From: an uncultured virus (IMG/VR IMGVR_UViG_3300032268_000966)
Lineage: Duplodnaviria; Heunggongvirae; Uroviricota; Caudoviricetes
Length of the DNA stretch: 64,000 bases
IMG/VR virus record: IMGVR_UViG_3300032268_000966
Direction: 5' to 3' (one strand)
A program made the position numbers and the translations under genes. The stretch's first letter is position 1, and each line of letters opens with the position of its first letter. Under the pieces are notes generated by a model, which ran no database searches, was not told the DNA's origin, and worked only from the letters and a program-made list of their open reading frames with translations. Shown one piece after another: positions 11,567-53,828 of this stretch.

Positions 11567-12283
11567 ATGAAAAAGATATTATTAATGGCGGGACTTTTAG
11601 TCTCAATGGCTTCCTATGGCCAAACTGTAGGTAAAACTCAGACAGAACAATATAAAGCATCTTTTGAGACCGCAATAGATATTAGTCGGTTTTTGGATTA
11701 CGATGGACCACAAATACCAATACAAATATTAAAGGCGGGAATCTCAGACGAAATGTATGAGATGTATCCTGAACTTAAAGAAAAAAGAGTTGGATTAGGG
11801 GTTGCGAATATTTCAATGGAATACCTTGAGAATCTTAATCGTTTTAAATTCACAGAAGATAAAACAGAAATTAAGAATAGAATGGTTAAGCAATTCCAAG
11901 CTTCACAATCGGGAATTTCTGAGAATAAATTAGACGGTAGAGGTAAAATTAATTTGGCACAATACTTCGTAACAATTGAGTGTTACGATTATTCTGTATC
12001 TGAAGATGAAACCGTCAATTTACAGAATGGGGTTAAAAATTTAATGGTTACCCGTATTGGTTTACAAGTAAGATTCACAAATGCAGAAACAGGAGTTGTA
12101 TTTGGTGCGTCAGGATTAGGTGAAGCAAAGACAACAAGAGAACTAACTTTATTATCAGATGCAACCGTAGACCCAATTAAATTTAATCAATCAACAATAT
12201 CAATTGCGACTAAAAAAGCTCTTGATATTGCTTGTGCTAGAATCTTAGATAGGATGATTAAAAAAGGAATTTACACCAAATAA
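11567..12283 (+). CDS. CsgG/HfaB-like outer-membrane channel protein
   Basis: Signal peptide; NRFKFTE, AQYFVTIEC and IGLQVRFTNAETGVV match the CsgG-family pattern. Confidence 0.6.
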   Translation: MKKILLMAGLLVSMASYGQTVGKTQTEQYKASFETAIDISRFLDYDGPQIPIQILKAGISDEMYEMYPELKEKRVGLGVANISMEYLENLNRFKFTEDKTEIKNRMVKQFQASQSGISENKLDGRGKINLAQYFVTIECYDYSVSEDETVNLQNGVKNLMVTRIGLQVRFTNAETGVVFGASGLGEAKTTRELTLLSDATVDPIKFNQSTISIATKKALDIACARILDRMIKKGIYTK

Positions 12284-42277: not shown

Positions 42278-42332
42278 AAAACTAAAATAGGGATTTATTT
42301 GATTTTGAATATATTTATTGTAATATTGTACT

Positions 42333-42431
42333 ATGAAAACTATGAACACAAATACAAATTTAGACACGCCGACAACTCCTAATGGAGATGGGGGCACTAT
42401 ATGCGTAAGTTCAGAAGCGAGTGGTTGGTAA
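42333..42431 (+). CDS. leader peptide 1 (32 aa) of the Pro/Asn/Asp/Gly/Thr tRNA operon
   Basis: MKTMNTNTNLDTPTTPNGDGGTICVSSEASGW; contains antiterminator strand 42405-42414. Confidence 0.85.
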   Translation: MKTMNTNTNLDTPTTPNGDGGTICVSSEASGW

Positions 42432-42452: not shown

Positions 42453-42483
42453 AAACCCTGAACTTATCCTTCAGGGTTTTTTT
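42453..42483 (+). terminator. attenuator terminator 1
   Basis: AAACCCTGAA-cttatcc-TTCAGGGTTT plus T-tract; 5' arm can instead pair with 42405-42414. Confidence 0.9.
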
Positions 42484-42493
42484 ATTTACGGGG

Positions 42494-42525: not shown

Positions 42526-42601
42526 AGGGTAGTGGGCTAATTGGCTAAGCCTCCACGTTTGGGACGTGGACATCATCCAAGTTCGAGTCTTGGTTACCCT
42601 A
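42526..42601 (+). tRNA. tRNA-Pro(TGG)
   Basis: AGGGTAG/TTACCCT; CCACG-TTTGGGA-CGTGG. Confidence 0.93.
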
Positions 42602-42607
42602 CATTAT

Positions 42608-42692
42608 TGACACGTTGCCATAGAGGCCGAATGGTCCAGACTGTTAATCTGGTGAGTAAAATCCAACGTAGGTTCGAATCCTACCGTGTCAG
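42608..42692 (+). tRNA. tRNA-Asn(GTT), long variable region
   Basis: TGACACG/CGTGTCA; CCAGA-CTGTTAA-TCTGG. Confidence 0.9.
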
Positions 42693-42734
42693 CTTTATTT
42701 TTTGAATAATTTATTATATTTATATTAACTAATA

Positions 42735-43283
42735 ATGTTAATCATGAGTAAATACTTCGAAAAAATAATGGAGTTAAGAAGTCAGGGTAAAACCTATAAA
42801 GAAATTTGTAAAGAATTAAATTGTGCGATGTCGACAGTATCGTATCACTGTAAACTCAACAAAGTTGCAGGACATAGTGATAGATTAACGGAAGAACAAA
42901 AAATAGAATTACAAGGACTTTATAATGAAATTGGTTCGGTAAAAAAAGTTGCAAAATTAAAAGGACATGCAACCAGTACTGTTTTAAAATATGTTGTAAC
43001 AAAAAATAAAGGTAAAACAGTTTCAAAAACTGAGGCGGTTATTGAATGGAGAAAACGAACAAAACAAAGACTGATTGAATATAAAGGTGGTGAGTGTGAA
43101 TTATGTGGATATAAAAAATGTAACAGGGCTTTACAGTTTCATCATCTAAATCCTGAAGAGAAAGACTTTTCAATCTCAGGTAAAAGCTTTAGTTTTGATA
43201 AACTAAAAGACGAGGTAAAAAAGTGTGTATTAGTATGTTCTAATTGTCATTCTGAAATACATGACGGTTTAATTACATTATAA
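42735..43283 (+). CDS. HTH plus HNH homing-type endonuclease
   Basis: CELCG...LQFHH...CVLVCSNCHSEIH; two N-terminal HTH-like segments. Confidence 0.85.
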   Translation: MLIMSKYFEKIMELRSQGKTYKEICKELNCAMSTVSYHCKLNKVAGHSDRLTEEQKIELQGLYNEIGSVKKVAKLKGHATSTVLKYVVTKNKGKTVSKTEAVIEWRKRTKQRLIEYKGGECELCGYKKCNRALQFHHLNPEEKDFSISGKSFSFDKLKDEVKKCVLVCSNCHSEIHDGLITL

Positions 43284-43366
43284 CAAGTGAGGTGGGTGGA
43301 AAAATTCCAATGTTGTAGTATCGTGGATGGAGTAATCCTGAAGCATAAACAGACAAAAAGAAAAAA

Positions 43367-43855
43367 ATGAAGTTAAAAACATTCTTATTGACTGGGATGT
43401 TATTGTTAGGAACAATGACAACCAAAGCACAAGAGAAGCAAGTACAGATTAAATCAAATACTCAAGAGAGTATCTCAAAAGAAAGTTTGTATGAGCAGAT
43501 AATTAAGTATGGTATAAAATTTCCTGATATTGTGTTCGCACAAGCAATATTAGAATCAGGAGAGTTTACATCAAAGTTGTTCAAATCAGCTAACAATCTT
43601 TTCGGAATGAAAGTTCCTGCTAAAAGAGAATCCGCAAAAATTGGGGTAACCCAAAGTGGTTACTCAAAGTACGAAGATTGGGAGTATAGCGTGTATGATT
43701 ATTCATTGTGGCAGGACCACATGTTAAAATCACGTAATGATATAACAAAAAAACAATATTTTGTGTTACTTGGTAAAGTTTATGCCGAGGACCCACAATA
43801 TGTTAACAAATTGAAGCAAAGAATATCAGAATATAATCATATCTTTGTTGACTAA
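43367..43855 (+). CDS. secreted GH73 glucosaminidase (FlgJ-like)
   Basis: AQAILESG, NNLFGMK and YAEDPQY motifs; signal peptide. Confidence 0.88.
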   Translation: MKLKTFLLTGMLLLGTMTTKAQEKQVQIKSNTQESISKESLYEQIIKYGIKFPDIVFAQAILESGEFTSKLFKSANNLFGMKVPAKRESAKIGVTQSGYSKYEDWEYSVYDYSLWQDHMLKSRNDITKKQYFVLLGKVYAEDPQYVNKLKQRISEYNHIFVD

Positions 43856-43882
43856 AGATTTGGGGTGAAACTCCCCATACAC

Positions 43883-43955
43883 GGTTCCGTGGTTGAATGG
43901 TTACAATTCCACCCTGTCACGGTGCGAGATACGGGTTCGAATCCCGTCGGGACCG
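43883..43955 (+). tRNA. tRNA-Asp(GTC)
   Basis: GGTTCCG/CGGGACC; loop CTGTCAC. Confidence 0.93.
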
Positions 43956-44012
43956 CAAAGTGGATAAAATGTGTAGTAACCACAGGGAAGGTACCTCCCA
44001 CTGCACTCCATT

Positions 44013-44085
44013 GCGGTAGTAGCTCAGTTGGTAGAGCTCGTTCCTTCCAAGTACGAGGTCGCAGGTTCGAACCCTGTCTACCGCT
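44013..44085 (+). tRNA. tRNA-Gly(TCC)
   Basis: GCGGTAG/CTACCGC, U73; loop CTTCCAA. Confidence 0.93.
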
Positions 44086-44135
44086 CAAAACAATAATCTT
44101 CCAACTTTTTTTTAAGTTGGAAGATATTTATATCT

Positions 44136-44552
44136 ATGGAAACAAAAAAATGTAAAAGATGCCAATTGGATTTACCCAAAGATGATATTCATTTTGCAAG
44201 TAGATATGATAGAAAGGAGAAACAATTTCAACACATGTGTAGAAATTGTCAAAAAGAATATAGAAAAGAACACTATGATGCTAATAAAGAAAAGTATATT
44301 CAAAAATCTAATCTATATTCGCAAAACTTTAAGGAATGGTTTACCGAAATAAAGAAACTTTTATCTTGTAAAAAATGTGGAGAGAATAGATATTGGGTTT
44401 TAGATTTTCACCATACCAATCCAGCTAAAAAAGATACTGATATATCAACACTATTGAAGTATAATAATAAGCAAAGAGTATTAGATGAAATTGATAAGTG
44501 TGTTGTACTATGTGCAAATTGTCATAGAGATTTACACCATCATCAAAGATAA
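44136..44552 (+). CDS. HNH endonuclease
   Basis: CKRC, CKKCG...LDFHH...CVVLCANCHRDLH. Confidence 0.85.
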   Translation: METKKCKRCQLDLPKDDIHFASRYDRKEKQFQHMCRNCQKEYRKEHYDANKEKYIQKSNLYSQNFKEWFTEIKKLLSCKKCGENRYWVLDFHHTNPAKKDTDISTLLKYNNKQRVLDEIDKCVVLCANCHRDLHHHQR

Positions 44553-44556
44553 ATAG

Positions 44557-44630
44557 GCCCCCTTAGCTCAGCAGGCCAGAGCGCGAAATTTGTAATTTCG
44601 ATGTCGTTGGTTCGATTCCGACAGGGGGCT
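44557..44630 (+). tRNA. tRNA-Thr(TGT)
   Basis: GCCCCCT/AGGGGGC; CGAAA-TTTGTAA-TTTCG. Confidence 0.93.
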
Positions 44631-44646
44631 CAAAAATTTTTATTTA

Positions 44647-44880: not shown

Positions 44881-45267
44881 ATGGAAAAACCCCAAGTTGT
44901 TAATGTAACAGAATGCCCATCATGCGCAATACCAAAAGGATGGGGTGAAGAAATCATTATTTGTAATCACGAACTTTACTGTGGTAAATTATTAAGATTC
45001 AAACAAGGCGCAAAATTTTCAATGCATTACCACATGATTAAAGATGAAACGTGGTATGTAAATGAAGGATTATTTATTTATAGGTGGATAGACACTGAGA
45101 CTGCAGAAGTTCAGGAACAATATTTAAAAATCGGTGATGTTGTTAGGCAAAGACCAGGACAACCTCACCAATTGGAAGCAATAACCGATGGAGAAGTGTT
45201 TGAAGTATCAACAGAACATTTTAATTCAGATTCATATAGAGTATGGAAGGGAGACAGTCAAAAATAA
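44881..45267 (+). CDS. cupin (sugar isomerase-like)
   Basis: KGWG.E, SMHYHMIKDET, PGQPH and EVST motifs. Confidence 0.85.
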   Translation: MEKPQVVNVTECPSCAIPKGWGEEIIICNHELYCGKLLRFKQGAKFSMHYHMIKDETWYVNEGLFIYRWIDTETAEVQEQYLKIGDVVRQRPGQPHQLEAITDGEVFEVSTEHFNSDSYRVWKGDSQK

Positions 45268-45548
45268 TATACGTTGATATTGATGGTACCATTTGTACTA
45301 TTGCCAGACCCTATTCTGAAGCAAAACCAATTTCAACACATATAGATAAAATAAATAAATTATATGATGAAGGTCATACGATAATTTATTATACTGCAAG
45401 GGGTGCTGCGTCAGGAGTTGATTATTCAGAATTAACTGAAAAACAACTTAAAAAGTGGGGTTGTAAATACACCTCACTTAAAATGAACCATAAACCTGAT
45501 TACGATTTGTTTATTTGTGATAAATCAAAAAGAATTGAAGAAATATGA
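45243..45548 (+). CDS. small HAD phosphatase
   Basis: DIDGTI, TARG and KP..D..ICDK motifs. Confidence 0.85.
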   Translation: MEGRQSKIIYVDIDGTICTIARPYSEAKPISTHIDKINKLYDEGHTIIYYTARGAASGVDYSELTEKQLKKWGCKYTSLKMNHKPDYDLFICDKSKRIEEI

Positions 45549-45943
45549 AAGTTTGGGTTAATGGAACATTTGATGTTCTTCACATAGGTCATTTAAAACT
45601 TTTGGAATTTGCGTCTTCTTTTGGTGAACTAAGAGTTGGTATTGATACTGATAAAAGAGTTAAAGAACTTAAATCACCTGATAGACCATTTAATACTACG
45701 GAAGATAGAAAGTATTTTTTAGAATCTTTAAAGTTTGTTAAAGATGTGGTTGTTTTTAATTCACGACAAGAATTAATAGATTTGGTTAAAGAACATCAAC
45801 CTGATTATATGGTTATTGGCGATGACTATAAAGACCAACCTGTTTATGGTTCAGAACATGCAAAACAATTAATTTTTTTTGAAAAATTACCTGAATATTC
45901 GACAACAAAAATATTAAATTATGAAAATAATAGTAATAGGTGA
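45545..45943 (+). CDS. nucleotidyltransferase (HldE/RfaE domain II-like)
   Basis: NGTFDVLHIGH, RPFN, GDDY and YSTT motifs. Confidence 0.88.
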   Translation: MKVWVNGTFDVLHIGHLKLLEFASSFGELRVGIDTDKRVKELKSPDRPFNTTEDRKYFLESLKFVKDVVVFNSRQELIDLVKEHQPDYMVIGDDYKDQPVYGSEHAKQLIFFEKLPEYSTTKILNYENNSNR

Positions 45944-46661
45944 ATCTTGTAAAGATGTATTTGTTTATGGTGACTGTAATAGATTGTCACCTGAAGCGCC
46001 TGTACCTGTGATGATTCCAAAAGTAATAAAAGATAATTTGGGAATGTCAGGTAATGTTGTTAAAAATCTTGAAGCTTTAGATTCTAATATTGAAATTCTT
46101 CATTGGTATCAAGAAGAATTAATTACTAAAACAAGATACGTTGATAAAAAAAGTAACCACATGTTTTTAAGAGTTGACGAAGGAGAAAACTCCATTGGTG
46201 AATTCAAACTAGATGAATGGAAAATAAATGAAATCAAAGATGCGGATGCAATCATTATCAGTGACTATGATAAAGGATTTTTAAGTGATAAAATACTTGA
46301 AACAATCACATGGGATGCTAAATTTTCAATAATTGATAGTAAAAGAAAGATAGGTTCTAACCTTATAACTTGCTTCAATTTTATAAAACTAAACGAGTCT
46401 GAATTTTCAAGATGTAATGTAAATTTACATCATTTGAAAAAAATTCTAATTACCCTTGGCTCAAAAGGGGCAAAATATAATGATACTATTTATCCATCAC
46501 CTGACCCAAAAGAAACTATCGATGTTAGTGGTGCTGGAGATACTTTTACTGCGTCATTTACATTAAAATATTTACAAACAAAAAACGTTGAAGAGTCAAT
46601 TATTTTCGCAAATAAAATGTCTTCAGTCGTTGTTTCAAAAAGAGGAGTTGCAACACCATGA
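45921..46661 (+). CDS. PfkB kinase (HldE/RfaE domain I-like heptose-7-P kinase)
   Basis: RLSPEAPVPV, SDYDKG and DVSGAGDT motifs. Confidence 0.9.
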   Translation: MKIIVIGESCKDVFVYGDCNRLSPEAPVPVMIPKVIKDNLGMSGNVVKNLEALDSNIEILHWYQEELITKTRYVDKKSNHMFLRVDEGENSIGEFKLDEWKINEIKDADAIIISDYDKGFLSDKILETITWDAKFSIIDSKRKIGSNLITCFNFIKLNESEFSRCNVNLHHLKKILITLGSKGAKYNDTIYPSPDPKETIDVSGAGDTFTASFTLKYLQTKNVEESIIFANKMSSVVVSKRGVATP

Positions 46662-47476
46662 GAAAAGTTATTATTACAGGTTCAAAAGGATTTATTGGTA
46701 AAAACTTAATTGATGAGATTAAGGGCAATTTTGATATTTTAGAAATTAATGAAGATATTTTTGACGATGAAGATTGGACAAATCACTTGTTAACAATATT
46801 AAACAAGTTTTCTCCCGATGTTATTTTTCATATTGGAGCTTGTTCAGACACATTGGAACAAGATGTGAATTACATGATGACAAGAAACTATGAGTCAACA
46901 AAGATTATGTCTGACTATTGTTATGTTTTTAATTGTAAAATGATTTATTCATCGTCCGCAGCAAACTATGGAACTAATAATTTATACCCATCAAATTTAT
47001 ATGGATGGAGCAAATACGCAGCTGAACAGTACGTTGTTAAAAATGGGGGAATTGGTTTAAGATATTTTAATGTTTACGGACCATTAGAAGACCATAAGGG
47101 AAAGATGTCATCCGTAGCATATCAAATGTTGGAAAAACAAAAAGAAGGCCAGGAAATTAAGATATTCCCTAATAAACCACAAAGAGATTTTGTTTACGTT
47201 AAAGATGTTGTAAATGCAAACCTTTACGCATTAGACCATTACTTTGAATTAAACTCAAAATGGTATGAAGTGGGTAGTGGAGATGCCAGAACTTTTGAGG
47301 ATGTATTAGATATTTTAGGTATAGATTATTCATATCACAAAGAGGATAAAATACCTAAAGGGTATCAATTCTTCACAAAAAGTAATAGAGATAAATGGAT
47401 GAATGGATGGAAACCAAAATATAAAATTGATACTGGATTGATTGAATATAAAAAATACTTAAATGGCACACCCTAA
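46658..47476 (+). CDS. ADP-glyceromanno-heptose 6-epimerase-like SDR (HldD/RfaD-like)
   Basis: GSKGFIG, GACSDT, YSSSAA, YGWSK, GLRYFNVYGP.E.HKG.M.SV and RDFVYV motifs. Confidence 0.88.
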   Translation: MRKVIITGSKGFIGKNLIDEIKGNFDILEINEDIFDDEDWTNHLLTILNKFSPDVIFHIGACSDTLEQDVNYMMTRNYESTKIMSDYCYVFNCKMIYSSSAANYGTNNLYPSNLYGWSKYAAEQYVVKNGGIGLRYFNVYGPLEDHKGKMSSVAYQMLEKQKEGQEIKIFPNKPQRDFVYVKDVVNANLYALDHYFELNSKWYEVGSGDARTFEDVLDILGIDYSYHKEDKIPKGYQFFTKSNRDKWMNGWKPKYKIDTGLIEYKKYLNGTP

Positions 47477-47827: not shown

Positions 47828-48547
47828 ATGAAAGGAATTTTAACGCCAGAAGAAAAACAATATTTAAGAAGAATATCCAATTACTTAGGTTCAATGGGAA
47901 TGCAAGACGGCAACATTGAAATTGATATGGATAATCAAGAGGAATTTGAATATGACAATGTTGATTGGGATTACATAACTCATTTTACCAATAACTACAA
48001 TGCAGATATCCCATCAGGATTAATTCCAATACTTCAAAAAATTATGAAGTATTGCGATGATAATAATTTAATTAGAGAACCTGATAATGATGATACGAAT
48101 TATCAAAGACTTGAATATGACATTGACGTAGATTCTAAAAAAATTAGTTTTACTCGTTGGTGGTCTTTTTATACTAGAGGAGAGGGTAGTTCAGTTACTT
48201 GGGAGGATGAACAAGGAAAAGCATTATTTGAACATTGGGAAGAAAGCGGAGTCTTAGAAGACCTTACAATTCCTGACGATGGGATTTTAATAGTAACATA
48301 TAATGGTTCTGGTGATTCAGGATATCTTGAAAGTAGTTTTAATGAAACAGGTGATGGAGTTCCAGCGGCAATTGAAGATTGGTGTTACAGAGAACTTAGT
48401 GATAACTATAGTGGTTGGGAAATTAATGAAGGTTCTGATGGACAATTTATATTCAACTTTCATGATATGACAATTGAATTGGTTCATACAGAAAATATAG
48501 AAGATAACGCAAGCGATACTTATTACGAGGAAAGTTTTAATGATTAA
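47828..48547 (+). CDS. acidic protein with DUF6878-like C-domain
   Basis: YNGSGDSG...GWEINEGS.G. Confidence 0.7.
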   Translation: MKGILTPEEKQYLRRISNYLGSMGMQDGNIEIDMDNQEEFEYDNVDWDYITHFTNNYNADIPSGLIPILQKIMKYCDDNNLIREPDNDDTNYQRLEYDIDVDSKKISFTRWWSFYTRGEGSSVTWEDEQGKALFEHWEESGVLEDLTIPDDGILIVTYNGSGDSGYLESSFNETGDGVPAAIEDWCYRELSDNYSGWEINEGSDGQFIFNFHDMTIELVHTENIEDNASDTYYEESFND

Positions 48548-48564
48548 TAATAATTATTATAATT

Positions 48565-48597
48565 AAAACCCCGACTAAAAAAGTTCGGGGTTTTTTT
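48565..48597 (+). terminator. intrinsic terminator
   Basis: AAAACCCCGA/TCGGGGTTTT plus T-tract. Confidence 0.85.
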
Positions 48598-48637
48598 ATG
48601 ACTTTATTAAAGATATTCACTATCTTTGTTAAACAAT

Positions 48638-48722
48638 ACCGAGGTGGTGTAATGGTAGCCACGAGGGACTTAAAATCCCTTGGTCAGTAACGGCCGTGAG
48701 GGTTCGAGTCCCTCCCTTGGTA
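48638..48722 (+). tRNA. tRNA-Leu(TAA)
   Basis: ACCGAGG/CCTTGGT; AGGGA-CTTAAAA-TCCCT; TATCTTTG at 48621. Confidence 0.95.
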
Positions 48723-48930
48723 CAATGAGTTAGAAGTACTCATCAAGTTTGGTAACGTTCTTTAAAGATGTTATGGTTGTTTCCTACCACGGCCTTAAGA
48801 GGGGGTCTCGGAGAATGGTCGTAACAACATCACCGAGTATGTTTGACGTTTTAAGCGGTAAGACGCGTTGGGTTTTTCAAGAAGAAAAACTGTGAATATC
48901 TACTCACTGGGATTTCAGGTGGGGAAATTT

Positions 48931-49004
48931 GGTTCCATAGCTCAACTGGACAGAGCACAATCCTTCTAAGATTGGGGTTTCAGGTTCGAGTCCTGATGGA
49001 ATCA
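48931..49004 (+). tRNA. tRNA-Arg(TCT)
   Basis: CAATC-CTTCTAA-GATTG. Confidence 0.95.
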
Positions 49005-49103
49005 CAATGTCATATCTTCAGGTACCCTCACAGCGGTGAGATGGGCTAAGTTAGATACAATTTCTCGGTGCTGGAAGTAGAATGCCTGTCTGATGTGATA
49101 TAT

Positions 49104-49184
49104 ACCCCGATGGTGGAATGGTAGACACGTATGTTTTAGGAACATATGACTTAAGTCATGTCGGTTCGAGTCCGACTTGGGGTA
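49104..49184 (+). tRNA. tRNA-Leu(TAG)
   Basis: TATGT-TTTAGGA-ACATA; long variable arm. Confidence 0.95.
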
Positions 49185-49245
49185 CAATATTTATAAAAAA
49201 AGATATAATAGATTTTGTAAACCAAAATATTTTTGTATCTTTGTA

Positions 49246-49335
49246 TTGTGATTGAGGAGCACGATTTAGATACACAAGCTCGATTACAAACTGGGTAACA
49301 CGGGAACGATTTAGATACTAGTGTTACCCTTTTTT
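49246..49335 (+). ncRNA. putative twin-hairpin small RNA with repeated loop motif ACGATTTAGATAC
   Basis: Own TATCTTTG promoter (49236), two stems, identical 13-mer in both loops, terminal T-tract. Confidence 0.7.
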
Positions 49336-49336
49336 A

Positions 49337-49756
49337 TTAGATGTCAGAATAAATAACCAATTGATTTTTACCAACTCTAAAAGGGTTAAACCTTGATTCT
49401 CTGAATACGGTTTTGATGATTAGTTGCCAATAAGTTCCTCCTATATGAACAGGAGTTATCGCCATTGCCAATTCCCACTTTAAAGATTTTACAACAAAAT
49501 CTTCTTCAGGCACAATTTCTCTTGTTACTATTTTTTCGGATATTTGTTTTGTCACCGTACTGATAATCTCTCTGATTTCCTCATTTACAATCGGCCTTAT
49601 GTTATATCCTTCAATATCATCTCTAGTATCTCTATCGAACGCATGACTGGTTCTATTCACATCAAATACAAATAAAACTTCTAAAGATGCGTTAACTTGA
49701 GTTATTCTTTTCTCAACTAATAAATTTTCCTTAATAATTTGTCTCAATGTTTTCAT
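49337..49756 (-). CDS. hypothetical protein (possible RNase-like fold)
   Basis: MKTLRQIIKE leader; TSHAFDR...IIKTV pattern. Confidence 0.65.
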   Translation of the reverse strand: MKTLRQIIKENLLVEKRITQVNASLEVLFVFDVNRTSHAFDRDTRDDIEGYNIRPIVNEEIREIISTVTKQISEKIVTREIVPEEDFVVKSLKWELAMAITPVHIGGTYWQLIIKTVFRESRFNPFRVGKNQLVIYSDI

Positions 49757-49783
49757 CTTTTCATAAATAGTTAAAAAAAATAA

Positions 49784-49814
49784 TTTGACAACTAAAAGAT
49801 TTTTACTATCTTTG
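49784..49814 (+). promoter_or_regulatory. Bacteroidota sigmaA-type promoter of leader 2
   Basis: TTTG(49784)-N19-TATCTTTG(49807). Confidence 0.8.
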
Positions 49815-49832
49815 AACTATATATTAGAAACA

Positions 49833-49943
49833 ATGAGAACTACAATAAAACATATGGTCTTTGGTCAACAACAAGAAACTTGTTGGTATGAGCGTATGCA
49901 GTCATGTAGTTCGGATATAATTTTGAATAATTTTTTAACCTAA
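49833..49943 (+). CDS. leader peptide 2 (36 aa) of the 11-tRNA operon
   Basis: MRTTIKHMVFGQQQETCWYERMQSCSSDIILNNFLT; contains antiterminator strand 49905-49914. Confidence 0.85.
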   Translation: MRTTIKHMVFGQQQETCWYERMQSCSSDIILNNFLT

Positions 49944-49965
49944 AAATAAACCAAATTTTTTATAC

Positions 49966-50000
49966 ACCCTGAACTACAGAAATGAAGTTCAGGGTTTTTT
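49966..50000 (+). terminator. attenuator terminator 2
   Basis: ACCCTGAACT-N10-AGTTCAGGGT plus T-tract; 5' arm can instead pair with 49905-49914. Confidence 0.9.
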
Positions 50001-50007
50001 GTTTTTG

Positions 50008-50022
50008 GCTCTTTGAAATATT
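50008..50022 (+). promoter_or_regulatory. boxA-like antitermination element
   Basis: GCTCTTTGAAATATT at the same relative position as 42494. Confidence 0.65.
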
Positions 50023-50045
50023 GATTGTATCTTTGTGAAACAAAT

Positions 50046-50119
50046 GTCGCGTTGGACAAATTGGTTAAGTCGTCATCCTTTCACGATGAAGATTACGGGT
50101 TCGAGCCCCGTACGCGATA
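50046..50119 (+). tRNA. tRNA-Glu(TTC)
   Basis: TCATC-CTTTCAC-GATGA. Confidence 0.95.
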
Positions 50120-50124
50120 CATTT

Positions 50125-50197
50125 AGTCTCTTAGCTCAGTTGGAAGAGCACTTGTCTTACATGCAAGTTGTCGTAGGTTCGATTCCTACAGGGACTA
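50125..50197 (+). tRNA. tRNA-Val(TAC)
   Basis: CTTGT-CTTACAT-GCAAG. Confidence 0.93.
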
Positions 50198-50203
50198 CAT
50201 AAA

Positions 50204-50306
50204 TCTCAAATTTGAGCAGTAAATTGTCTTAAATTTGAGCAGTGACAAAGTCGGAAGTAAAACTCGTCCAAAGTCGGAAGTAAAAACGTGACAAAATCGG
50301 AAGTTA
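50204..50306. repeat. 23-bp-period direct repeats (2x TCTYAAATTTGAGCAGT, 3x CAAARTCGGAAGT)
   Basis: Copies start at 50204 and 50227, and at 50246, 50269 and 50292. Confidence 0.85.
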
Positions 50307-50521
50307 TGAAATATATTTTTAGAGGACATACTGTGTTTGAGTACAAACCAGATGATAAGTTTGATAAAGTGGTTCAAGGTAAGATTCATGATGCAATTCC
50401 AGCATTTGATTTTTGTCATATGATTCCTGAGGATTATAGATTGTTAGGAGAGTTTTTTAATACAGTTTATAAACATACTCAGGGAGAAGATGTCGAGTTG
50501 AAAGATGTGGAGGTGTATTAA
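50288..50521 (+). CDS. hypothetical protein
   Basis: 77 aa (ATG 50306 is an alternative start). Confidence 0.6.
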   Translation: MTKSEVMKYIFRGHTVFEYKPDDKFDKVVQGKIHDAIPAFDFCHMIPEDYRLLGEFFNTVYKHTQGEDVELKDVEVY

Positions 50522-50522
50522 T

Positions 50523-50595
50523 GGTGACGTAGCTCAGTTGGTAGAGCACTTGCCTGAAGAGCAAGGTGTCGTCGGTTCAATTCCGACCGTTACCA
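50523..50595 (+). tRNA. tRNA-Phe(GAA)
   Basis: CTTGC-CTGAAGA-GCAAG. Confidence 0.95.
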
Positions 50596-50670
50596 CGGAG
50601 TCCCGAATTAACGGGAAACCCCCACTCCCATATGGCAGCCAGTCCGTTAAGCTGGTGAAGTGGGGTAGGA

Positions 50671-50773
50671 AGTTAAGTAGTAGATATGTAAACGAGCACA
50701 GGGCTCGGTAAGTCGAAATGGTGATGATTCTCTTTACGAGACTACATTGTGGGTTCGAATCCCACCTTAACAA
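50671..50773 (+). ncRNA. tRNA-like RNA with canonical T arm and acceptor stem but non-canonical interior
   Basis: GTTAAG/CTTAAC; GTGGG-TTCGAAT-CCCAC; no standard D or anticodon arm. Confidence 0.6.
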
Positions 50774-50787
50774 CAAAAAAAAATGAT

Positions 50788-51411
50788 ATGATTGATAACA
50801 TAAACATAATTAAACCATTATTGAACTTCGAGGAGAAGGGTGACTTCTATATGCTGTATGTTTTTAAACGTAAGAAAGACCAACCTGAAGGAGAGAAAGA
50901 TAACCATCAGTCGGTTAGAACTATTAAAACATATTGTATTGAATCAGTTGACCATTTGGAAAGGAGATATGATGAGGTGATACAATTATGTGAGATGTTC
51001 AAGGCGAGAGCTTATATTCATGTTCAGAAACAAAATCACAGAGATGTATCTTTGGATATGTTGTCGAGTTTGGCTGAGAGAATTAAGAATGGAGTTCAGA
51101 ACCAAAAGGGATTATTTGATTCGGTTGTTGGACAAATAAAGACTCAAGAGAAAAGATGGATTATCGATGTTGATAATGTATCCATGGATGGATTTAACCA
51201 TTCTCCAAGTCAGATTGAAATGAGAGAATATATAAACGAGTTACAGAAAGAGGCGGGAAAAGACCAAGGAATGACTTTTATTAAGACAAGAAGTGGATTC
51301 CATATCATAACTCAACCTTTTAATGTAATGAAATTTAAAGAGAAATATCCTGAGGTTGATATTCAAAAGAAAAACCCAACATTATTGTATTACCCAAATT
51401 CGTTAAATTAA
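50788..51411 (+). CDS. AEP/primase-polymerase-superfamily-like protein
   Basis: WIIDVD and KTRSGFHII motifs; start moved past the tRNA-like element. Confidence 0.6.
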   Translation: MIDNINIIKPLLNFEEKGDFYMLYVFKRKKDQPEGEKDNHQSVRTIKTYCIESVDHLERRYDEVIQLCEMFKARAYIHVQKQNHRDVSLDMLSSLAERIKNGVQNQKGLFDSVVGQIKTQEKRWIIDVDNVSMDGFNHSPSQIEMREYINELQKEAGKDQGMTFIKTRSGFHIITQPFNVMKFKEKYPEVDIQKKNPTLLYYPNSLN

Positions 51412-51416
51412 AAAAT

Positions 51417-51635
51417 ATGGAAAAAAGAACATTTAATAGTAGTGATTTATCTTGGATTTCAGTATCTTTGAAGGGAAAATCAGATGTAACAGTATACGAA
51501 GGAGATTTAAGTGATTGTGGTAATGAGATTGGATATACTGTCGGTAAAAGATATAAAAATATGACTGAGGAAGAAATTGAGGATTTTATTACAGGAATAA
51601 GGCATGGGATTTCATTAACAAACGGAACGCATTAA
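51417..51635 (+). CDS. hypothetical protein
   Basis: 72 aa ORF. Confidence 0.65.
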   Translation: MEKRTFNSSDLSWISVSLKGKSDVTVYEGDLSDCGNEIGYTVGKRYKNMTEEEIEDFITGIRHGISLTNGTH

Positions 51636-51646
51636 AATAAACTAAA

Positions 51647-51862
51647 ATGAAAGTAATAGTAAAAAAAGATAGTATGGATATTTTCCCTCACTTATATGAA
51701 GGAACGGTTTTACAAGAAGTTAAAGATAGTGGAGATAATTACATTGGACTTTTTACTTCTGTATTTGGTTCATATTATGTTGAGGTACCTAAAAAAAGAT
51801 GTAAAAAATATATAATTAAACAAACGTTAAATGGTCGGTTGGCCGAGTGGCTTAGGCGGTAG
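51647..51862 (+). CDS. hypothetical protein (3' end overlaps tRNA-Cys)
   Basis: 71 aa ORF with A-rich start context. Confidence 0.55.
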   Translation: MKVIVKKDSMDIFPHLYEGTVLQEVKDSGDNYIGLFTSVFGSYYVEVPKKRCKKYIIKQTLNGRLAEWLRR

Positions 51863-51904
51863 TCTGCAAAACTACTTACACAGGTTCAAATCCTGTACCG
51901 ACCT
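51833..51904 (+). tRNA. tRNA-Cys(GCA)
   Basis: GGTCGGT/ACCGACC, U73; GTAGT-CTGCAAA-ACTAC. Confidence 0.95.
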
Positions 51905-51918
51905 CAAAAATAAAAATT

Positions 51919-52164
51919 ATGGCAAAAGGAATATTAGAATTTGATTTGAACAACCAAGATGAAGTAATAGCCCATAAAAGAGCTGTTAAGTCTTTTGATA
52001 TGGCTATTGCGTTATGGGAAATTACTCATAACACTAAAAAGTCTTTAGAGTGGTCTTTAGAAGGTAAAGACATTGACAAATACGAGACCTTGGAACTAGT
52101 ATTTGATAAAATTTATGAAATTCTAAATGAAAATAACATAAACACAGAAGAATTTATAAATTAA
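51919..52164 (+). CDS. hypothetical phage protein
   Basis: MAKGILEFDL... 81 aa. Confidence 0.7.
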   Translation: MAKGILEFDLNNQDEVIAHKRAVKSFDMAIALWEITHNTKKSLEWSLEGKDIDKYETLELVFDKIYEILNENNINTEEFIN

Positions 52165-52170
52165 AAAAAC

Positions 52171-52243
52171 ACGTGCGTAGCTCAGATGGTAGAGCAGTAG
52201 TCTCCAAAACTATGTGTCAGAGGTTCGACTCCTTTCGTGCGTG
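52171..52243 (+). tRNA. tRNA-Trp(CCA)
   Basis: GTAGT-CTCCAAA-ACTAT; G73. Confidence 0.95.
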
Positions 52244-52376
52244 CTAAAGGTTGATTGGGGAATGATATACTGTAACCTGATGATGGAGGTGGTATTTCGG
52301 AGTTTGAAATCATCTGAGTAATGCCAATCATAAAAGGAGTTGTCCACTGAACCATCTTCTCCTTTCCTGAAGTTTT

Positions 52377-52572
52377 TTGAAAAGTAGGCCTATAACCTAC
52401 GTCGGTGGTAGAGTGGGGTTGAGGAAGGCAGTAGTTCAGTCATCCAAGAGACCGTCGAGGGTCAAGCAGGTAGAACACAGTCACCTGATAAGTCCCCTAA
52501 AGACAGATGGGAGTAATCGCGAATATCTCCTGTCAAACAAATATCGGAAAATACCCATCGTCTACTTTTCAA
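52377..52572 (+). ncRNA. putative ~195-nt structured RNA
   Basis: 13-bp closing stem TTGAAAAGTAGGC/GTCTACTTTTCAA; GC-rich interior between tRNAs. Confidence 0.55.
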
Positions 52573-52575
52573 ATT

Positions 52576-52657
52576 GGGAGTATCGCCTAGTGGCAATGGC
52601 AGAAGACTGTAAATCTTCCCTCTTTCGAGTTCGTTGGTTCGAGTCCAGCTACTCCCA
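52576..52657 (+). tRNA. tRNA-Tyr(GTA)
   Basis: GAAGA-CTGTAAA-TCTTC; long variable arm. Confidence 0.95.
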
Positions 52658-52750
52658 CAAAAGTTAAACTAAGATACTGTAAAATCAGTAGGTGGTGATT
52701 CGGATTTATCTGTGAGCCATTTCAACCCTGAAAGCAATGTTTAGCTTCAT

Positions 52751-52824
52751 GGACTTGTAGCTCATTCGGTTAGAGCGGCACACTCATAATGTGAAGGTAA
52801 TAGGTTCGATTCCTATCTGGTCCA
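52751..52824 (+). tRNA. tRNA(CAT), probably Ile2 (lysidine-modified, reads AUA)
   Basis: Loop CTCATAA; GGAC/GTCC acceptor typical of tRNA-Ile2; elongator Met not excluded. Confidence 0.8.
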
Positions 52825-52961
52825 CACGGTTTGGTTAGTCACCAAATAGTATATCCAATACGATGGGAAATGGTTTGACAACCATATGGAAACGTACATT
52901 GACGTATAGGTAGAACGTCAGGGAATGTCATCCCGACCTCGTGAGGACGAAACGACAATCT

Positions 52962-53032
52962 TGTCCGATGGTGTAACGGTAACACTACAGTTTTTGGTAC
53001 TGTCATTTCTGGTTCGAATCCAGGTCGGATAA
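52962..53032 (+). tRNA. tRNA-Gln(TTG)
   Basis: ACAGT-TTTTGGT-ACTGT; U1-A72. Confidence 0.93.
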
Positions 53033-53036
53033 CAAA

Positions 53037-53114
53037 ATGGAAAAAAATATGTGGTTATTATTATTATGGGTTATTTTGATGATTGTTGTAAAATGGGACA
53101 ATGACCGTGACTAA
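53037..53114 (+). CDS. 25-aa hydrophobic peptide
   Basis: MEKNMWLLLLWVILMIVVKWDNDRD fills the Gln-Arg spacer exactly. Confidence 0.45.
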   Translation: MEKNMWLLLLWVILMIVVKWDNDRD

Positions 53115-53186
53115 GGTTTTATGGTGTAACGGATAGCACACAAAACTACGGATTTTGGAGTTTAGGTTCGAATCCTAATAGAACCT
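53115..53186 (+). tRNA. tRNA-Arg(ACG)
   Basis: CAAAA-CTACGGA-TTTTG. Confidence 0.93.
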
Positions 53187-53192
53187 CTAAAC

Positions 53193-53266
53193 TGCGAGGT
53201 AGCTCATTTGGTGAGAGCGCAGGATTCATAACCCTGAGGTGGGCAGTTCAAATCTGCCTCTCGCAA
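53193..53266 (+). tRNA. tRNA-Met(CAT)
   Basis: TGCGAGG/TCTCGCA; loop TTCATAA; initiator versus elongator unclear. Confidence 0.88.
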
Positions 53267-53271
53267 CATAT

Positions 53272-53343
53272 GGTGTTTGAAGCATTAAGGTGATGCACTA
53301 GTTTGTGGAACTAGGAAAGACGGGTCGGTACCGTCCTTACACC
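53272..53343 (+). tRNA. tRNA-His(GTG), atypical
   Basis: G-1/C73; CTAGT-TTGTGGA-ACTAG; non-canonical T loop GTCGGTA. Confidence 0.8.
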
Positions 53344-53378
53344 CAAATACTTTTCGTATATGTTGACTATTTATCTGT

Positions 53379-53828
53379 ATGGAAAAAGTAACCTTAACAA
53401 AAGAACAACTATTCAAGGTGATGCATTTGAATGAGCAGGAAAATAAGTCTGAAACTAAAAGTAACTCAGGGTTTAAAAATATGGTATCAACATTATTGCA
53501 TTCACAAACTCAAGTTCATATCTTTCATTTGCAAACCAAATCATATTCAGAACATAAGGCATTACAAGGATACTACGAGGGTATTGATGCATTAGTGGAT
53601 GGTATTATTGAAAGTTACCAAGGTAAATACGACCTTGTTAAAAATTATGACTCAGCAAAAACTGAGGATTATAAAAGTGTTGACCAAGTAATTAATTATT
53701 TTAAATCATTAGACTCCATGATTGAAAAAGCAAGAAAAGGAGTTAAAGAATCGTTTATTCAAAACCAAATCGATACGGTTCAAGAATTAATTTATTCAAC
53801 AATATACAAATTAAGATTTTTAAAGTAG
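53379..53828 (+). CDS. ferritin/Dps-like protein (DUF5856-like)
   Basis: HIFHLQT.SY.EHKAL..YY...D...E.YQG and NQID...TIYKL motifs. Confidence 0.75.
   Translation: MEKVTLTKEQLFKVMHLNEQENKSETKSNSGFKNMVSTLLHSQTQVHIFHLQTKSYSEHKALQGYYEGIDALVDGIIESYQGKYDLVKNYDSAKTEDYKSVDQVINYFKSLDSMIEKARKGVKESFIQNQIDTVQELIYSTIYKLRFLK

What the first reader, a model, noticed from the sequence alone, without database searches (positions are those of the whole stretch)
49784..53343. Leader 2 lists all 11 tRNAs of its operon, partly in gene order
Codons 5-23 read I(ATA)KHMVFGQQQETCWYER(CGT)MQ. Sixteen of 19 correspond to the downstream Glu, Val, Phe, Cys, Trp, Tyr, Ile2(CAT), Gln, Arg(ACG), Met and His tRNAs, and all 11 are represented, including rare residues C, W, H and M. 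ATA fits Ile2 and CGT fits Arg-ACG. The runs V-F, C-W-Y and R-M follow the tRNA gene order. TGTAGTTCGG (49905-49914) pairs with CTGAACTACA (49969-49978), competing with the terminator. Caveats: a second TTTG-N20-TATCTTTG (50004-50035) lies after the terminator and may give basal, unattenuated expression; Val GTC needs extended wobble to be read by the TAC anticodon; the stop codon lies 27 nt beyond the antiterminator strand.
Basis: seen in the sequence. Interest (0 to 1): 0.93.

Follow-up and report, generated by a model that had tools for sequence, protein, structure and literature searches.

The report
Checklist leader peptides gating phage tRNA genes
In front of a block of this phage's tRNA genes sits a tiny gene spelled with the amino acids those tRNAs carry, joined to a switchable transcription stop, so the phage probably makes more of these tRNAs when ribosomes stall for lack of them.

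Summary
A 36-codon ORF (49833-49943) lies between a Bacteroidota-type promoter and an intrinsic terminator, ahead of 10 tool-called tRNA genes plus a degenerate His-like one. It holds every amino acid of those tRNAs. Its stretch MVFGQQQETCWYER is the only place in six frames of the window where those 9 types meet within 14 residues. A second leader (42333-42431) lists Pro/Asn/Asp/Gly/Thr ahead of exactly those tRNAs.

In 19 leader/operon pairs from 11 phage records, including Cellulophaga phage phi4:1, 189 of 192 operon amino-acid types appear in the operon's own leader. Leaders ahead of whole tRNA arrays hold all 20 amino acids within 25 residues. Arg codons follow the Arg isoacceptor downstream. 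Each ORF tail pairs with its own terminator's 5' arm.

Best reading (about 0.7): a trp-type ribosome-mediated attenuator that lets transcription through when decoding of these codons is slow.

Main caveat: a conserved second promoter between the terminator and tRNA-Glu can bypass it here. There is no expression evidence.

I found no published description in six literature searches. This scan has noted the same idea before on other DNA, including a relative.

The parts
49784..49814 (+). Promoter P1 of leader 2: TTTG, 19 nt, TATCTTTG. Predicted transcription start about 49819.
   Evidence: Pattern scan. The motif is over-represented: 21 found against 4.5 expected. It is invariant in 10 relatives. 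The sigma-A -7 box TAnnTTTG lies at -12 to -5 in Flavobacterium (passages of PMC9723704).
49833..49943 (+). Leader ORF 2: 36 codons plus stop, MRTTIKHMVFGQQQETCWYERMQSCSSDIILNNFLT.
   Evidence: The frame is kept in 22 of 22 loci that hold the operon head.
49836..49845 (+). Region 1 (AGAACTACAA, codons 2-4), complementary to region 2. Proposed anti-antiterminator.
   Evidence: The full-length fold pairs it with 49905-49912. Duplex -10.8 kcal/mol. A 7-bp core is kept in 10 of 10 relatives but is invariant, so there is no covariation.
49845..49901 (+). Sensor codons 5-23, IKHMVFGQQQETCWYERMQ.
   Evidence: Residues H7, V9, F10, Q13, Q14, C17, W18, Y19, E20, R21 and M22 are invariant in 10 relatives.
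49901..49915 (+). Region 2, the antiterminator strand (core TGTAGTTCGG, 49905-49914), inside codons 24-28.
   Evidence: Invariant in relatives.
49966..50001 (+). Intrinsic terminator: regions 3 and 4 (ACCCTGAACTACAG...AGTTCAGGGT) plus T run.
   Evidence: -16.6 kcal/mol. Two stem pairs show compensatory CG/UA changes across relatives, and 94% of cells are paired.
50004..50035 (+). Promoter P2 between terminator and tRNA-Glu. Predicted start about 50040, 6 nt before the tRNA.
   Evidence: The core TCTTTGAAATATTG.TTGTA..TTTGT is conserved in 10 of 10 relatives. The same geometry is seen at 48621 and 53902 before other tRNAs.
50046..53267 (+). tRNA operon 2: Glu(ttc), Val(tac), Phe(gaa), Cys(gca), Trp(cca), Tyr(gta), CAT, Gln(ttg), Arg(acg), CAT, with small ORFs and G+C-rich spacers between them.
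   Evidence: ARAGORN, Rfam, ORFs. The 207-aa ORF at 50788-51411 matches phrog_14949, of unknown function.
53270..53343 (+). Degenerate His(GTG) tRNA-like gene.
   Evidence: Not called by ARAGORN or Rfam. Homologous to the His tRNA called in L005.
42298..42328 (+). Promoter of leader 1: TTTG, 19 nt, TAATATTG. The predicted start coincides with the A of the ATG, which would make the mRNA leaderless.
   Evidence: Invariant in 8 relatives.
42333..42431 (+). Leader ORF 1: MKTMNTNTNLDTPTTPNGDGGTICVSSEASGW.
   Evidence: Across codons 2-22, 8 of 9 variable codons change only synonymously.
42404..42414 (+). Region 2 of leader 1 (core TAAGTTCAG), complementary to the terminator's 5' arm.
   Evidence: Folds. 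Duplex -13.7 kcal/mol, shuffle p 0.017.
42453..42486 (+). Terminator of leader 1.
42526..44631 (+). tRNA operon 1: Pro, Asn, Asp, Gly, Thr. It is interrupted by two HNH endonuclease genes and a glucosaminidase-like gene, and has an internal TATCTTTG at 43840.
48566..49185 (+). Terminator, promoter (TATCTTTG, 48621-48628) and tRNAs Leu(taa), Arg(tct), Leu(tag). In relatives a Leu/Arg-rich leader stands here. In the window's lineage that leader is replaced by the end of gene 47828-48547.

Best explanation
Leader 2 is a ribosome-mediated (leader-peptide) transcription attenuator of the trp/his type, but it gates tRNA genes rather than biosynthetic genes.

Proposed working, all inferred from sequence:
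- Transcripts start at P1 (about 49819) and the 36-codon ORF is translated.
- When every codon in the sensor (codons 5-23) is decoded quickly, the ribosome runs over region 2 (49901-49915). Alternatively, after release, region 1 (codons 2-4) pairs with region 2. Either way the terminator (49966-50001) forms and transcription stops.
- When any tRNA species read in the sensor is scarce or uncharged, the ribosome stalls upstream of region 2. Region 2 then pairs with the 5' arm of the terminator, and RNA polymerase reads on into the tRNA block that contains the missing species.
- The product therefore relieves the signal, which makes a direct feedback loop.

In this phage the loop is layered on a constitutive promoter (P2) just before tRNA-Glu, so it would add to expression rather than be the only source.

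Shown by computation: the ORF, its match to the operon, the alternative pairings and their conservation. Inferred: translation of the ORF, stalling, and the direction of the switch.
For: 1. Match of leader to operon. In 15 pairs from 7 records, 129 of 130 operon amino-acid types are in the operon's own leader. With 4 more pairs the count is 189 of 192. The matching stretch is compact: MVFGQQQETCWYER has p 2.6e-4, TPNGD has p 0.0027, and L073 and L055 hold 25-residue stretches with all 20 amino acids at about 6e-5 each. The leader 2 stretch is unique in six frames of the window.

2. Specificity. In 5 of 5 genomes with several operons, the true leader-operon assignment scores best of all permutations.

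3. Independent lineage. Cellulophaga phage phi4:1 has MKIQRLHLQELEQP.. before Pro Glu Gln His Leu Leu Arg. It has ..KTGITVIDKTKGARAY.. before Ala Lys Ile Gly Met Asp Thr Val Arg Met. It has ..NYCTYNNSNWSFSY.. before Tyr Ser Asn Trp Phe.

4. Codon level. CGT (11% of Arg codons in this phage) is used where Arg(acg) follows, and AGA where Arg(tct) follows: 15 match and 3 do not. The 3 mismatches lie at codon 2 or within the last 5 codons.

5. Coding constraint. In leader 1, 8 of 9 variable sensor codons change only synonymously, while the tail changes freely. A 3-nt indel keeps the frame of leader 2.

6. Gain and loss. An Ala codon at position 20 of leader 1 is present in 6 of 6 loci with tRNA-Ala and absent in window, L005 and L006, which lack it. 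L121 lacks both tRNA-Ala and the two Ala codons that its relatives L055 and L140 have.

7. Switch. A 2:3 duplex exists in all 15 leaders tested. The sum over 10 families against their own terminators is -128 kcal/mol, matched by 1 of 100000 random assignments. A 1:2 plus 3:4 fold and a 2:3 fold are both predicted. The terminator stem covaries.

8. Need for read-through. In phi4:1, L073, L055, L121, L140, L152 and the relatives of leader 1, the terminator ends 7-15 nt before the first tRNA, leaving no room for a promoter.

9. Leader-peptide attenuation is reported as likely for amino-acid operons in a flavobacterium (passage of PMC9723704).
Against: - P2 (50004-50035) is conserved in all 10 relatives and would start 6 nt before tRNA-Glu, like the promoters at 48621 and 53902. 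Operon 2 can therefore be transcribed without passing the attenuator.
- In the window's lineage a 1-nt deletion puts the stop 26 nt beyond region 2, against 14 nt in relatives. A terminating ribosome would not mask region 2 here.
- Each amino acid is mostly sampled once, not in runs, so sensitivity is unknown.
- K6, G11 and T16 have no tRNA in this operon. GTC is not the Watson-Crick codon of Val(tac). The His gene is degenerate.
- In relatives the 2:3 core is only 7 bp, about -10 to -11 kcal/mol, against terminators of -16 to -20.
- The 1:2 and 2:3 helices are invariant within the family, so they show no compensatory changes.
- For 2 of 10 families (C, L055) the tail ranks only 5th or 6th of 10 against its own terminator.
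- Fine-scale tracking is imperfect. L038 and L041 keep the Ala codon without a tRNA-Ala. L121 lacks an Arg codon although Arg(acg) follows. Lys and Ser codons track their tRNAs only loosely.
- Small tRNA clusters in L025, L039 and L080 have no such leader.
- Loci are related, so counts by locus are not independent events.
Confidence: 0.72

Rival explanations
1. The promoter-ORF-terminator unit is a self-contained small gene or small RNA. The tRNA block is expressed only from P2, and the terminator is unconditional.
For: P2 is conserved and well placed. In the window the Leu-Arg-Leu unit runs from such a promoter with no leader at all. An orphan promoter, 16-codon ORF and terminator stand at 49214-49335 with no tRNA behind them.
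Against: It does not explain why each ORF lists the amino acids of the block behind it and not of other blocks. It also does not explain why the ORF tail pairs with its own terminator. In many relatives and in phi4:1 the terminator ends 7-15 nt before the first tRNA with no promoter between, so an unconditional stop would silence the block.
Confidence: 0.1
2. The polarity is reversed: efficient translation of the leader opens the terminator, so the tRNAs are made when translation is healthy.
For: Not excluded by sequence alone. Ribosomes close behind the polymerase can suppress terminators in general (established knowledge).
Against: Stop codons lie 19-35 nt before the terminator stems (coordinates), beyond the reach of a ribosome sitting at the stop. 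The element that competes with the terminator lies inside the ORF tail, where a translating ribosome would cover it.
Confidence: 0.07
3. The ORFs encode functional micro-proteins, and their composition is selected at the protein level.
For: The frame is conserved. One of them is annotated as hypothetical protein gp075 in phi4:1.
Against: The peptides of different blocks share no common sequence beyond the N-terminal MK/RT. They differ exactly as the tRNA sets differ. Arg codon choice follows the isoacceptor. The tails evolve freely.
Confidence: 0.04
4. The leader RNA senses tRNAs directly by codon-anticodon pairing, like a T-box, without translation.
For: The logic is the same: tRNA status controls a terminator.
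Against: No T-box or other Rfam family matches. There is an uninterrupted ORF with a start and a stop, third-position variation and a frame-keeping indel. Up to 20 specifiers in a row have no structural precedent (established knowledge of T-box architecture, recalled).
Confidence: 0.03
5. The match is a chance resemblance.
For: Single amino-acid sets of 2-5 types are easy to cover. Full-coverage p is only 0.1-0.4 for some small operons. One all-20 stretch of 25 residues also occurs inside an ordinary long ORF in L039 and L085.
Against: Compactness p values of 1e-4 to 1e-2 occur in 13 of 15 pairs. The stretch is unique in the window. The true assignments are the best-scoring in 5 of 5 genomes. 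The pattern recurs in unrelated leader sequences.
Confidence: 0.01

Closest known systems
Leader-peptide attenuators of enterobacterial amino-acid operons (trpL, hisL, leuL, pheL; multivalent thrL and ilvL). Recalled from established knowledge.
   Same: A short ORF holds the diagnostic codons. Mutually exclusive hairpins 1:2 plus 3:4 or 2:3 can form. An intrinsic terminator precedes the first regulated gene. Some of these leaders sense more than one amino acid (thr, ilv).
   Different: The regulated genes are tRNAs, so the product is the sensed molecule itself. Up to all 20 amino acids are sampled, mostly once each, instead of runs of one. The host is a phage of a Bacteroidota-type host, with no Shine-Dalgarno sequence, and some mRNAs are predicted to be leaderless. 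There is no sequence or Rfam relationship.
pheST (pheM leader) attenuator of E. coli phenylalanyl-tRNA synthetase. Recalled.
   Same: Leader-peptide attenuation applied to a component of the translation apparatus rather than to biosynthesis.
   Different: It has one amino acid, and a protein gene rather than tRNA genes is regulated.
T-box riboswitches
   Same: tRNA status decides between terminator and antiterminator ahead of genes of the tRNA and amino-acid supply.
   Different: A T-box binds one tRNA directly and needs no ribosome. Here there is an ORF under coding constraint, and no T-box match.
Phage tRNA arrays that replace depleted or cleaved host tRNAs, for example viral tRNA against PARIS (PMC11464382 and the preprint 10.1101/2024.01.02.573894; search listing and abstract starts only)
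   Same: They give a functional context: phage tRNAs matter when host tRNAs run short.
   Different: Those works, as far as the listing shows, concern what the tRNAs do, not a leader-peptide control of their transcription.
Earlier notes of this scan on other DNA (e1-5947551, e1-5985818, e1-5870437, e1-6011797, e1-6154969, e1-2978539)
   Same: The same idea: codon-matched leader ORF plus terminator before phage or spare tRNA blocks. One note concerns a relative sharing 20 of 91 words with this leader.
   Different: They are unpublished AI notes on other windows, and not independent evidence.

Membership tests
Ribosome-mediated (leader-peptide) transcription attenuator, as a mechanism class | Short ORF with start and stop between the promoter and the first regulated gene | tested here: met
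   49833-49943 and 42333-42431. Conserved in 22 of 22 and 12 of 12 loci that hold the operon heads.
Ribosome-mediated (leader-peptide) transcription attenuator, as a mechanism class | ORF enriched in codons tied to the regulated genes | tested here: met
   189 of 192 types covered. Compactness and uniqueness tests. Permutations. Arg codon match.
Ribosome-mediated (leader-peptide) transcription attenuator, as a mechanism class | Intrinsic terminator between the leader and the regulated genes | tested here: met
   49966-50001, -16.6 kcal/mol. Stem covariation.
Ribosome-mediated (leader-peptide) transcription attenuator, as a mechanism class | Alternative antiterminator pairing whose upstream strand lies where a ribosome on the leader would control it | tested here: met
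   Region 2 lies in the ORF tail and the 2:3 helix is predicted. Specific to its own terminator. No compensatory changes within the family.
Ribosome-mediated (leader-peptide) transcription attenuator, as a mechanism class | Leader is translated, and read-through rises when cognate charged tRNA is limiting | not testable with these tools
   Only indirect support: synonymous-only variation in the sensor. RNA contigs did not cover the leader.
Rfam leader families (Trp_leader, His_leader, Leu_leader, Thr_leader and the like) | Match to the covariance model at or near the gathering score | tested here: not met
   Only tRNA matches at gathering score in the whole window. Nothing relevant at E<=1 in 48600-53400.
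T-box riboswitch (RF00230) | Specifier loop and T-box antiterminator matched by the model | tested here: not met
   No match.
Bacteroidota sigma-A promoter | TTG-containing -33 element and TAnnTTTG at -12 to -5 | tested here: met
   49784-49814 and 50004-50035. The motif is over-represented. Definition taken from passages of PMC9723704. Activity was not tested.

The most novel reading that the evidence does not exclude
Phages of Bacteroidota carry a closed-loop tRNA homeostat. Each tRNA block is headed by a translated checklist of the codons it serves, and whole arrays are headed by a 25-residue stretch holding all 20 amino acids. Loss of any one host tRNA would then switch on exactly the block holding the replacement. 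Possible causes of such loss are phage codon demand, host RNA decay, or anticodon nucleases and other tRNA-targeting defences. That would make these leaders general sensors of translation health and an inducible counter-defence.
Probability: 0.35. Interest if true: 0.95.

Novelty: new variant of a known kind. Interest (0 to 1): 0.9.

Why it matters
Leader-peptide attenuation is a textbook control of amino-acid synthesis. Here the same device appears to control tRNA genes, so the molecule that is sensed is the molecule that is made.

It would explain how large phage tRNA arrays are regulated. It would give a reason for the partition of arrays into blocks. It would also link phage tRNAs to host tRNA depletion and tRNA-cleaving defences.

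The all-20 leaders would be the broadest natural sensors of decoding known to me.

A cultured system exists for direct tests: Cellulophaga baltica with phage phi4:1, which has three such leaders with no bypass promoter.

Tried and rejected
- Own assembly is not held. The nearest record, G001, is 98-100% identical over the two leaders and ends inside leader 2, so it adds nothing.
- RNA runs X15-X18 (contigs) laid on 49300-51000 covered only parts of 50126-51000, at 90-99% likeness. None covered the leader, and contigs cannot show starts, ends or absence. No conclusion was drawn.
- Rfam gave no family for the leaders or for the G+C-rich spacers.
- phi17:2 is almost identical to phi4:1 in all three leaders, so it is not an extra test.
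- phi4:1 gp076 (L003 12485-12586) was considered as a leader and dropped. It does not match the tRNAs behind it, and a better ORF lies at 12139-12237.
- The start codon of the second phi4:1 leader is unclear. There is no ATG; ATA or GTG is possible.
- Gene-order colinearity as a rule was rejected.
- Fine-scale Lys and Ser codon tracking was noisy.
- A plain full-coverage statistic over whole peptides was too weak for small operons and was replaced by the shortest-stretch statistic.
- Two unrelated phages were examined: no leader in the T5-like Serratia phage Slocum, and one weak candidate in Bacillus phage Thurquoise.
- The all-20 stretch in L039 and L085 lies inside a longer ORF and is taken as chance.
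- Literature searches found no description of leader-peptide control of tRNA genes. The library lacks most subscription journals, and supplements were not consulted.

Full report
WHAT THE WINDOW IS. The window is phage DNA with 33% G+C. It encodes a head maturation protease, HNH endonucleases and a glucosaminidase-like lysin. ARAGORN tRNA genes, all confirmed by Rfam. The nearest named relatives, and only distantly, are Cellulophaga phages phi4:1 and phi17:2. The motif TTTG-N17-23-TAnnTTTG occurs 16 times against 6.45 expected, and TATCTTTG 21 times against 4.5. This is the sigma-A promoter form of Bacteroidota, with the -7 box at -12 to -5 (passages of PMC9723704). Near-identical DNA lies in lake-water metagenomes. 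A Bacteroidota host is my inference.

THE OBSERVATION. It checks out:
- Promoter P1 lies at 49784-49814, with a predicted start near 49819.
- The ORF spans 49833-49943 and reads MRTTIKHMVFGQQQETCWYERMQSCSSDIILNNFLT.
- The terminator lies at 49966-50001.
- A second promoter, P2, lies at 50004-50035.
- tRNA-Glu follows at 50046.
- Ten tRNAs are called up to 53267.
It is a homologue of a His tRNA called in relative L005.

With tool-called tRNAs only, 14 of 19 sensor codons match. With the His-like gene and an assumed Ile2, 16 of 19 match. In six frames of the whole window the leader is the only place where the 9 called types fall within 14 residues, or the 11 types within 17. The composition-based probability after correction for positions is 2.6e-4.

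A SECOND LEADER IN THE WINDOW. At 42333-42431, MKTMNTNTNLDTPTTPNGDGGTICVSSEASGW precedes a terminator (42453-42486) and the tRNAs Pro, Asn, Asp, Gly and Thr. Its tail (TAAGTTCAG) pairs with the terminator's 5' arm.

RELATIVES. A protein inside operon 2 (50788-51411) brought 80 IMG/VR loci, and a relative of it brought 70 more.
- All 22 loci that hold the head of the Glu-Val-Phe block carry leader 2. All 12 that hold the Pro-Asn head carry leader 1.
- Relatives have a third leader, MRTTLL(H/N)TLLLDRQGLLRRLMP, before Leu(taa), Arg(tct), Leu(tag). In the window's lineage it is replaced by the end of gene 47828-48547, while the terminator and promoter remain.
- More distant phages have differently composed blocks and correspondingly different leaders. 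In L043, ..KHMNVSIWNQQFSNCSYPRISH.. stands before Ser Gln Cys Val Tyr Phe Asn Ile His Arg Pro. Also in L043, MQTLNTLLLTIGAEGRDTTRSEMV stands before Glu Ala Asp Gly Arg Leu Thr Leu Met.
- L073, L055, L140, L121 and L152 each have a single leader before arrays of 21 to 26 tRNA calls.
- phi4:1, a cultured phage, has three leaders with the same logic. Only one is annotated, as hypothetical protein gp075.

COUNTS AND CONTROLS.
- In 15 pairs from 7 records, 129 of 130 operon amino-acid types are present in the operon's own leader. With four further pairs the count is 189 of 192. The misses are Met in two leaders (start codon aside) and Arg in L121.
- A whole-peptide coverage test was weak for small sets, so I used the shortest stretch that holds all types. 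Corrected p ranges from 1.6e-5 to 0.1, and is below 0.03 in 13 of 15 pairs.
- L073, L055 and L140 hold 25-residue stretches with all 20 amino acids, at about 6e-5 each.
- In 2.4 Mb of held loci, five distinct all-20 stretches of 25 residues exist. Three are these leaders. Two, in L039 and L085, lie within an ordinary long ORF and are taken as chance.
- In each of five genomes with two or three blocks, the true leader-block assignment scores best of all permutations. The smallest attainable p over three independent clades is 1/72.
- Loci are related, so counts by locus are not independent events.

CODON-LEVEL AND CODING EVIDENCE.
- Arg is AGA in 75% and CGT in 11% of cases in this phage's genes. 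Yet the sensor uses CGT where Arg(acg) follows and AGA where Arg(tct) follows: 15 matches and 3 mismatches. The mismatches lie at codon 2 or within the last 5 codons.
- Both codons of Asn, Asp, Glu and Gln are sampled, and rare codons (GTC, ACG, CCG, GGC) appear.
- In leader 1, 8 of 9 variable codons among positions 2-22 change only synonymously, including TTA to CTT. The tail changes freely.
- The single replacement, Gly or Ala at codon 20, goes with tRNA-Ala. Ala is present in 6 of 6 loci that have the tRNA, and Gly in window, L005 and L006, which lack it. L038 and L041 keep the Ala codon without the tRNA.
- L121 lacks tRNA-Ala and both Ala codons of its relatives.
- In leader 2 the invariant sensor residues (H, V, F, Q, Q, C, W, Y, E, R, M) are those whose tRNAs are always in the block. 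A 3-nt indel keeps the frame.

THE SWITCH.
- The full-length fold pairs codons 2-4 (GAACUACA) with UGUAGUUC and forms the terminator. The fold truncated before the 3' arm pairs UGUAGUUCGG with CUGAACUACA.
- All 15 leaders tested have a 2:3 duplex, with shuffle p from 0.000 to 0.32.
- Across 10 families, tails prefer their own terminator: a sum of -128 kcal/mol, matched by 1 of 100000 random assignments. The own terminator ranks first in 5 of 10 families and first or second in 8 of 10.
- Within the leader 2 family the terminator shows two compensatory pairs. The 2:3 and 1:2 cores are kept in 10 of 10 sequences but are invariant.
- Stops lie 19-35 nt before the terminators.
- In phi4:1, L073, L055, L121, L140, L152 and the relatives of leader 1, the terminator ends 7-15 nt before the first tRNA, so the block can only be made by read-through.

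WHAT SPEAKS AGAINST, OR LIMITS, THE READING.
- P2 is conserved in all 10 aligned relatives. It would start 6 nt before tRNA-Glu, like the promoters at 48621 and 53902 before tRNA-Leu and tRNA-Ile. TATCTTTG also lies at 43840 before tRNA-Asp. In this phage the leaders can therefore only add to promoter-driven expression.
- The window's lineage has a 1-nt deletion that moves the stop to 26 nt beyond region 2.
- Three sensor codons have no tRNA in the block.
- Small tRNA clusters in L025, L039 and L080 have no leader.
- No expression data bear on the leader.
- The gene-order runs are significant here (p about 0.001-0.004) but not in 13 of the other 14 leaders.

COMPARISON AND NOVELTY. The device works like the trp, his, thr and ilv leader-peptide attenuators, but it is not a member of any Rfam leader family or of the T-box family. 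Six literature searches found no account of leader-peptide control of tRNA genes. Subscription journals are largely outside the library. This scan has noted the same idea before on other DNA, including a relative of this leader. I formed my reading before seeing those notes, and I tested the claims on my own loci.

VERDICT. It is a new variant of a known kind of control, and regulation remains to be shown.

Noticed in passing
window 49214-49335: A consensus promoter (TTTG..TATCTTTG), a 16-codon GTG-started frame (MIEEHDLDTQARLQTG by my reading) and a terminator with a long loop, with CGATTTAGATAC repeated twice. Nothing lies behind it on this strand, because a convergent gene follows. It may be an orphan leader or a small RNA.
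   Followed up: no
window 50597-50780; also 48724-48930, 49006-49103, 52245-52575, 52826-52961: G+C-rich spacers between tRNA genes have no Rfam match. The first 70 nt after tRNA-Phe are shared with L004. Where relatives have tRNA-Lys(ttt), the window has a different piece that ends in a tRNA-like T arm (GTGGGTTCGAATCCCAC).
   Followed up: partly
window 47828-48637: The Leu/Arg-rich leader found in relatives is missing. A DUF6878-containing gene runs up to the retained terminator and promoter of the Leu-Arg-Leu tRNA unit.
   Followed up: yes
window 42321-42335; L003 9421-9435 and 12127-12141: In three leaders the -7-like box ends exactly 4 nt before the ATG, so the predicted start is the A of the ATG. 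These would be leaderless mRNAs.
   Followed up: partly
window 42735-43283 and 44136-44552: HNH homing-endonuclease genes sit between tRNA genes of operon 1. A glucosaminidase-like gene at 43367-43855 also lies inside the block.
   Followed up: partly
L156 (Bacillus phage Thurquoise) 9954-10052: A 15-codon GTG frame (HPYPKQEFSPSYSS) and a terminator end 8 nt before tRNAs Arg Ser Gln Pro Phe Tyr Leu Ile. Of 14 residues, 11 match. This is a weak hint that the device may exist outside Bacteroidota phages.
   Followed up: partly
L039 17080-17154 and L085 18481-18555: A 25-residue stretch with all 20 amino acids lies inside a longer ORF, some 600 nt before a small tRNA cluster. I take it as chance.
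   Followed up: partly
window 44881-47476: A run of genes between the tRNA blocks looks by eye like sugar-nucleotide (heptose-type) synthesis enzymes. I did not search them against any library.
   Followed up: no
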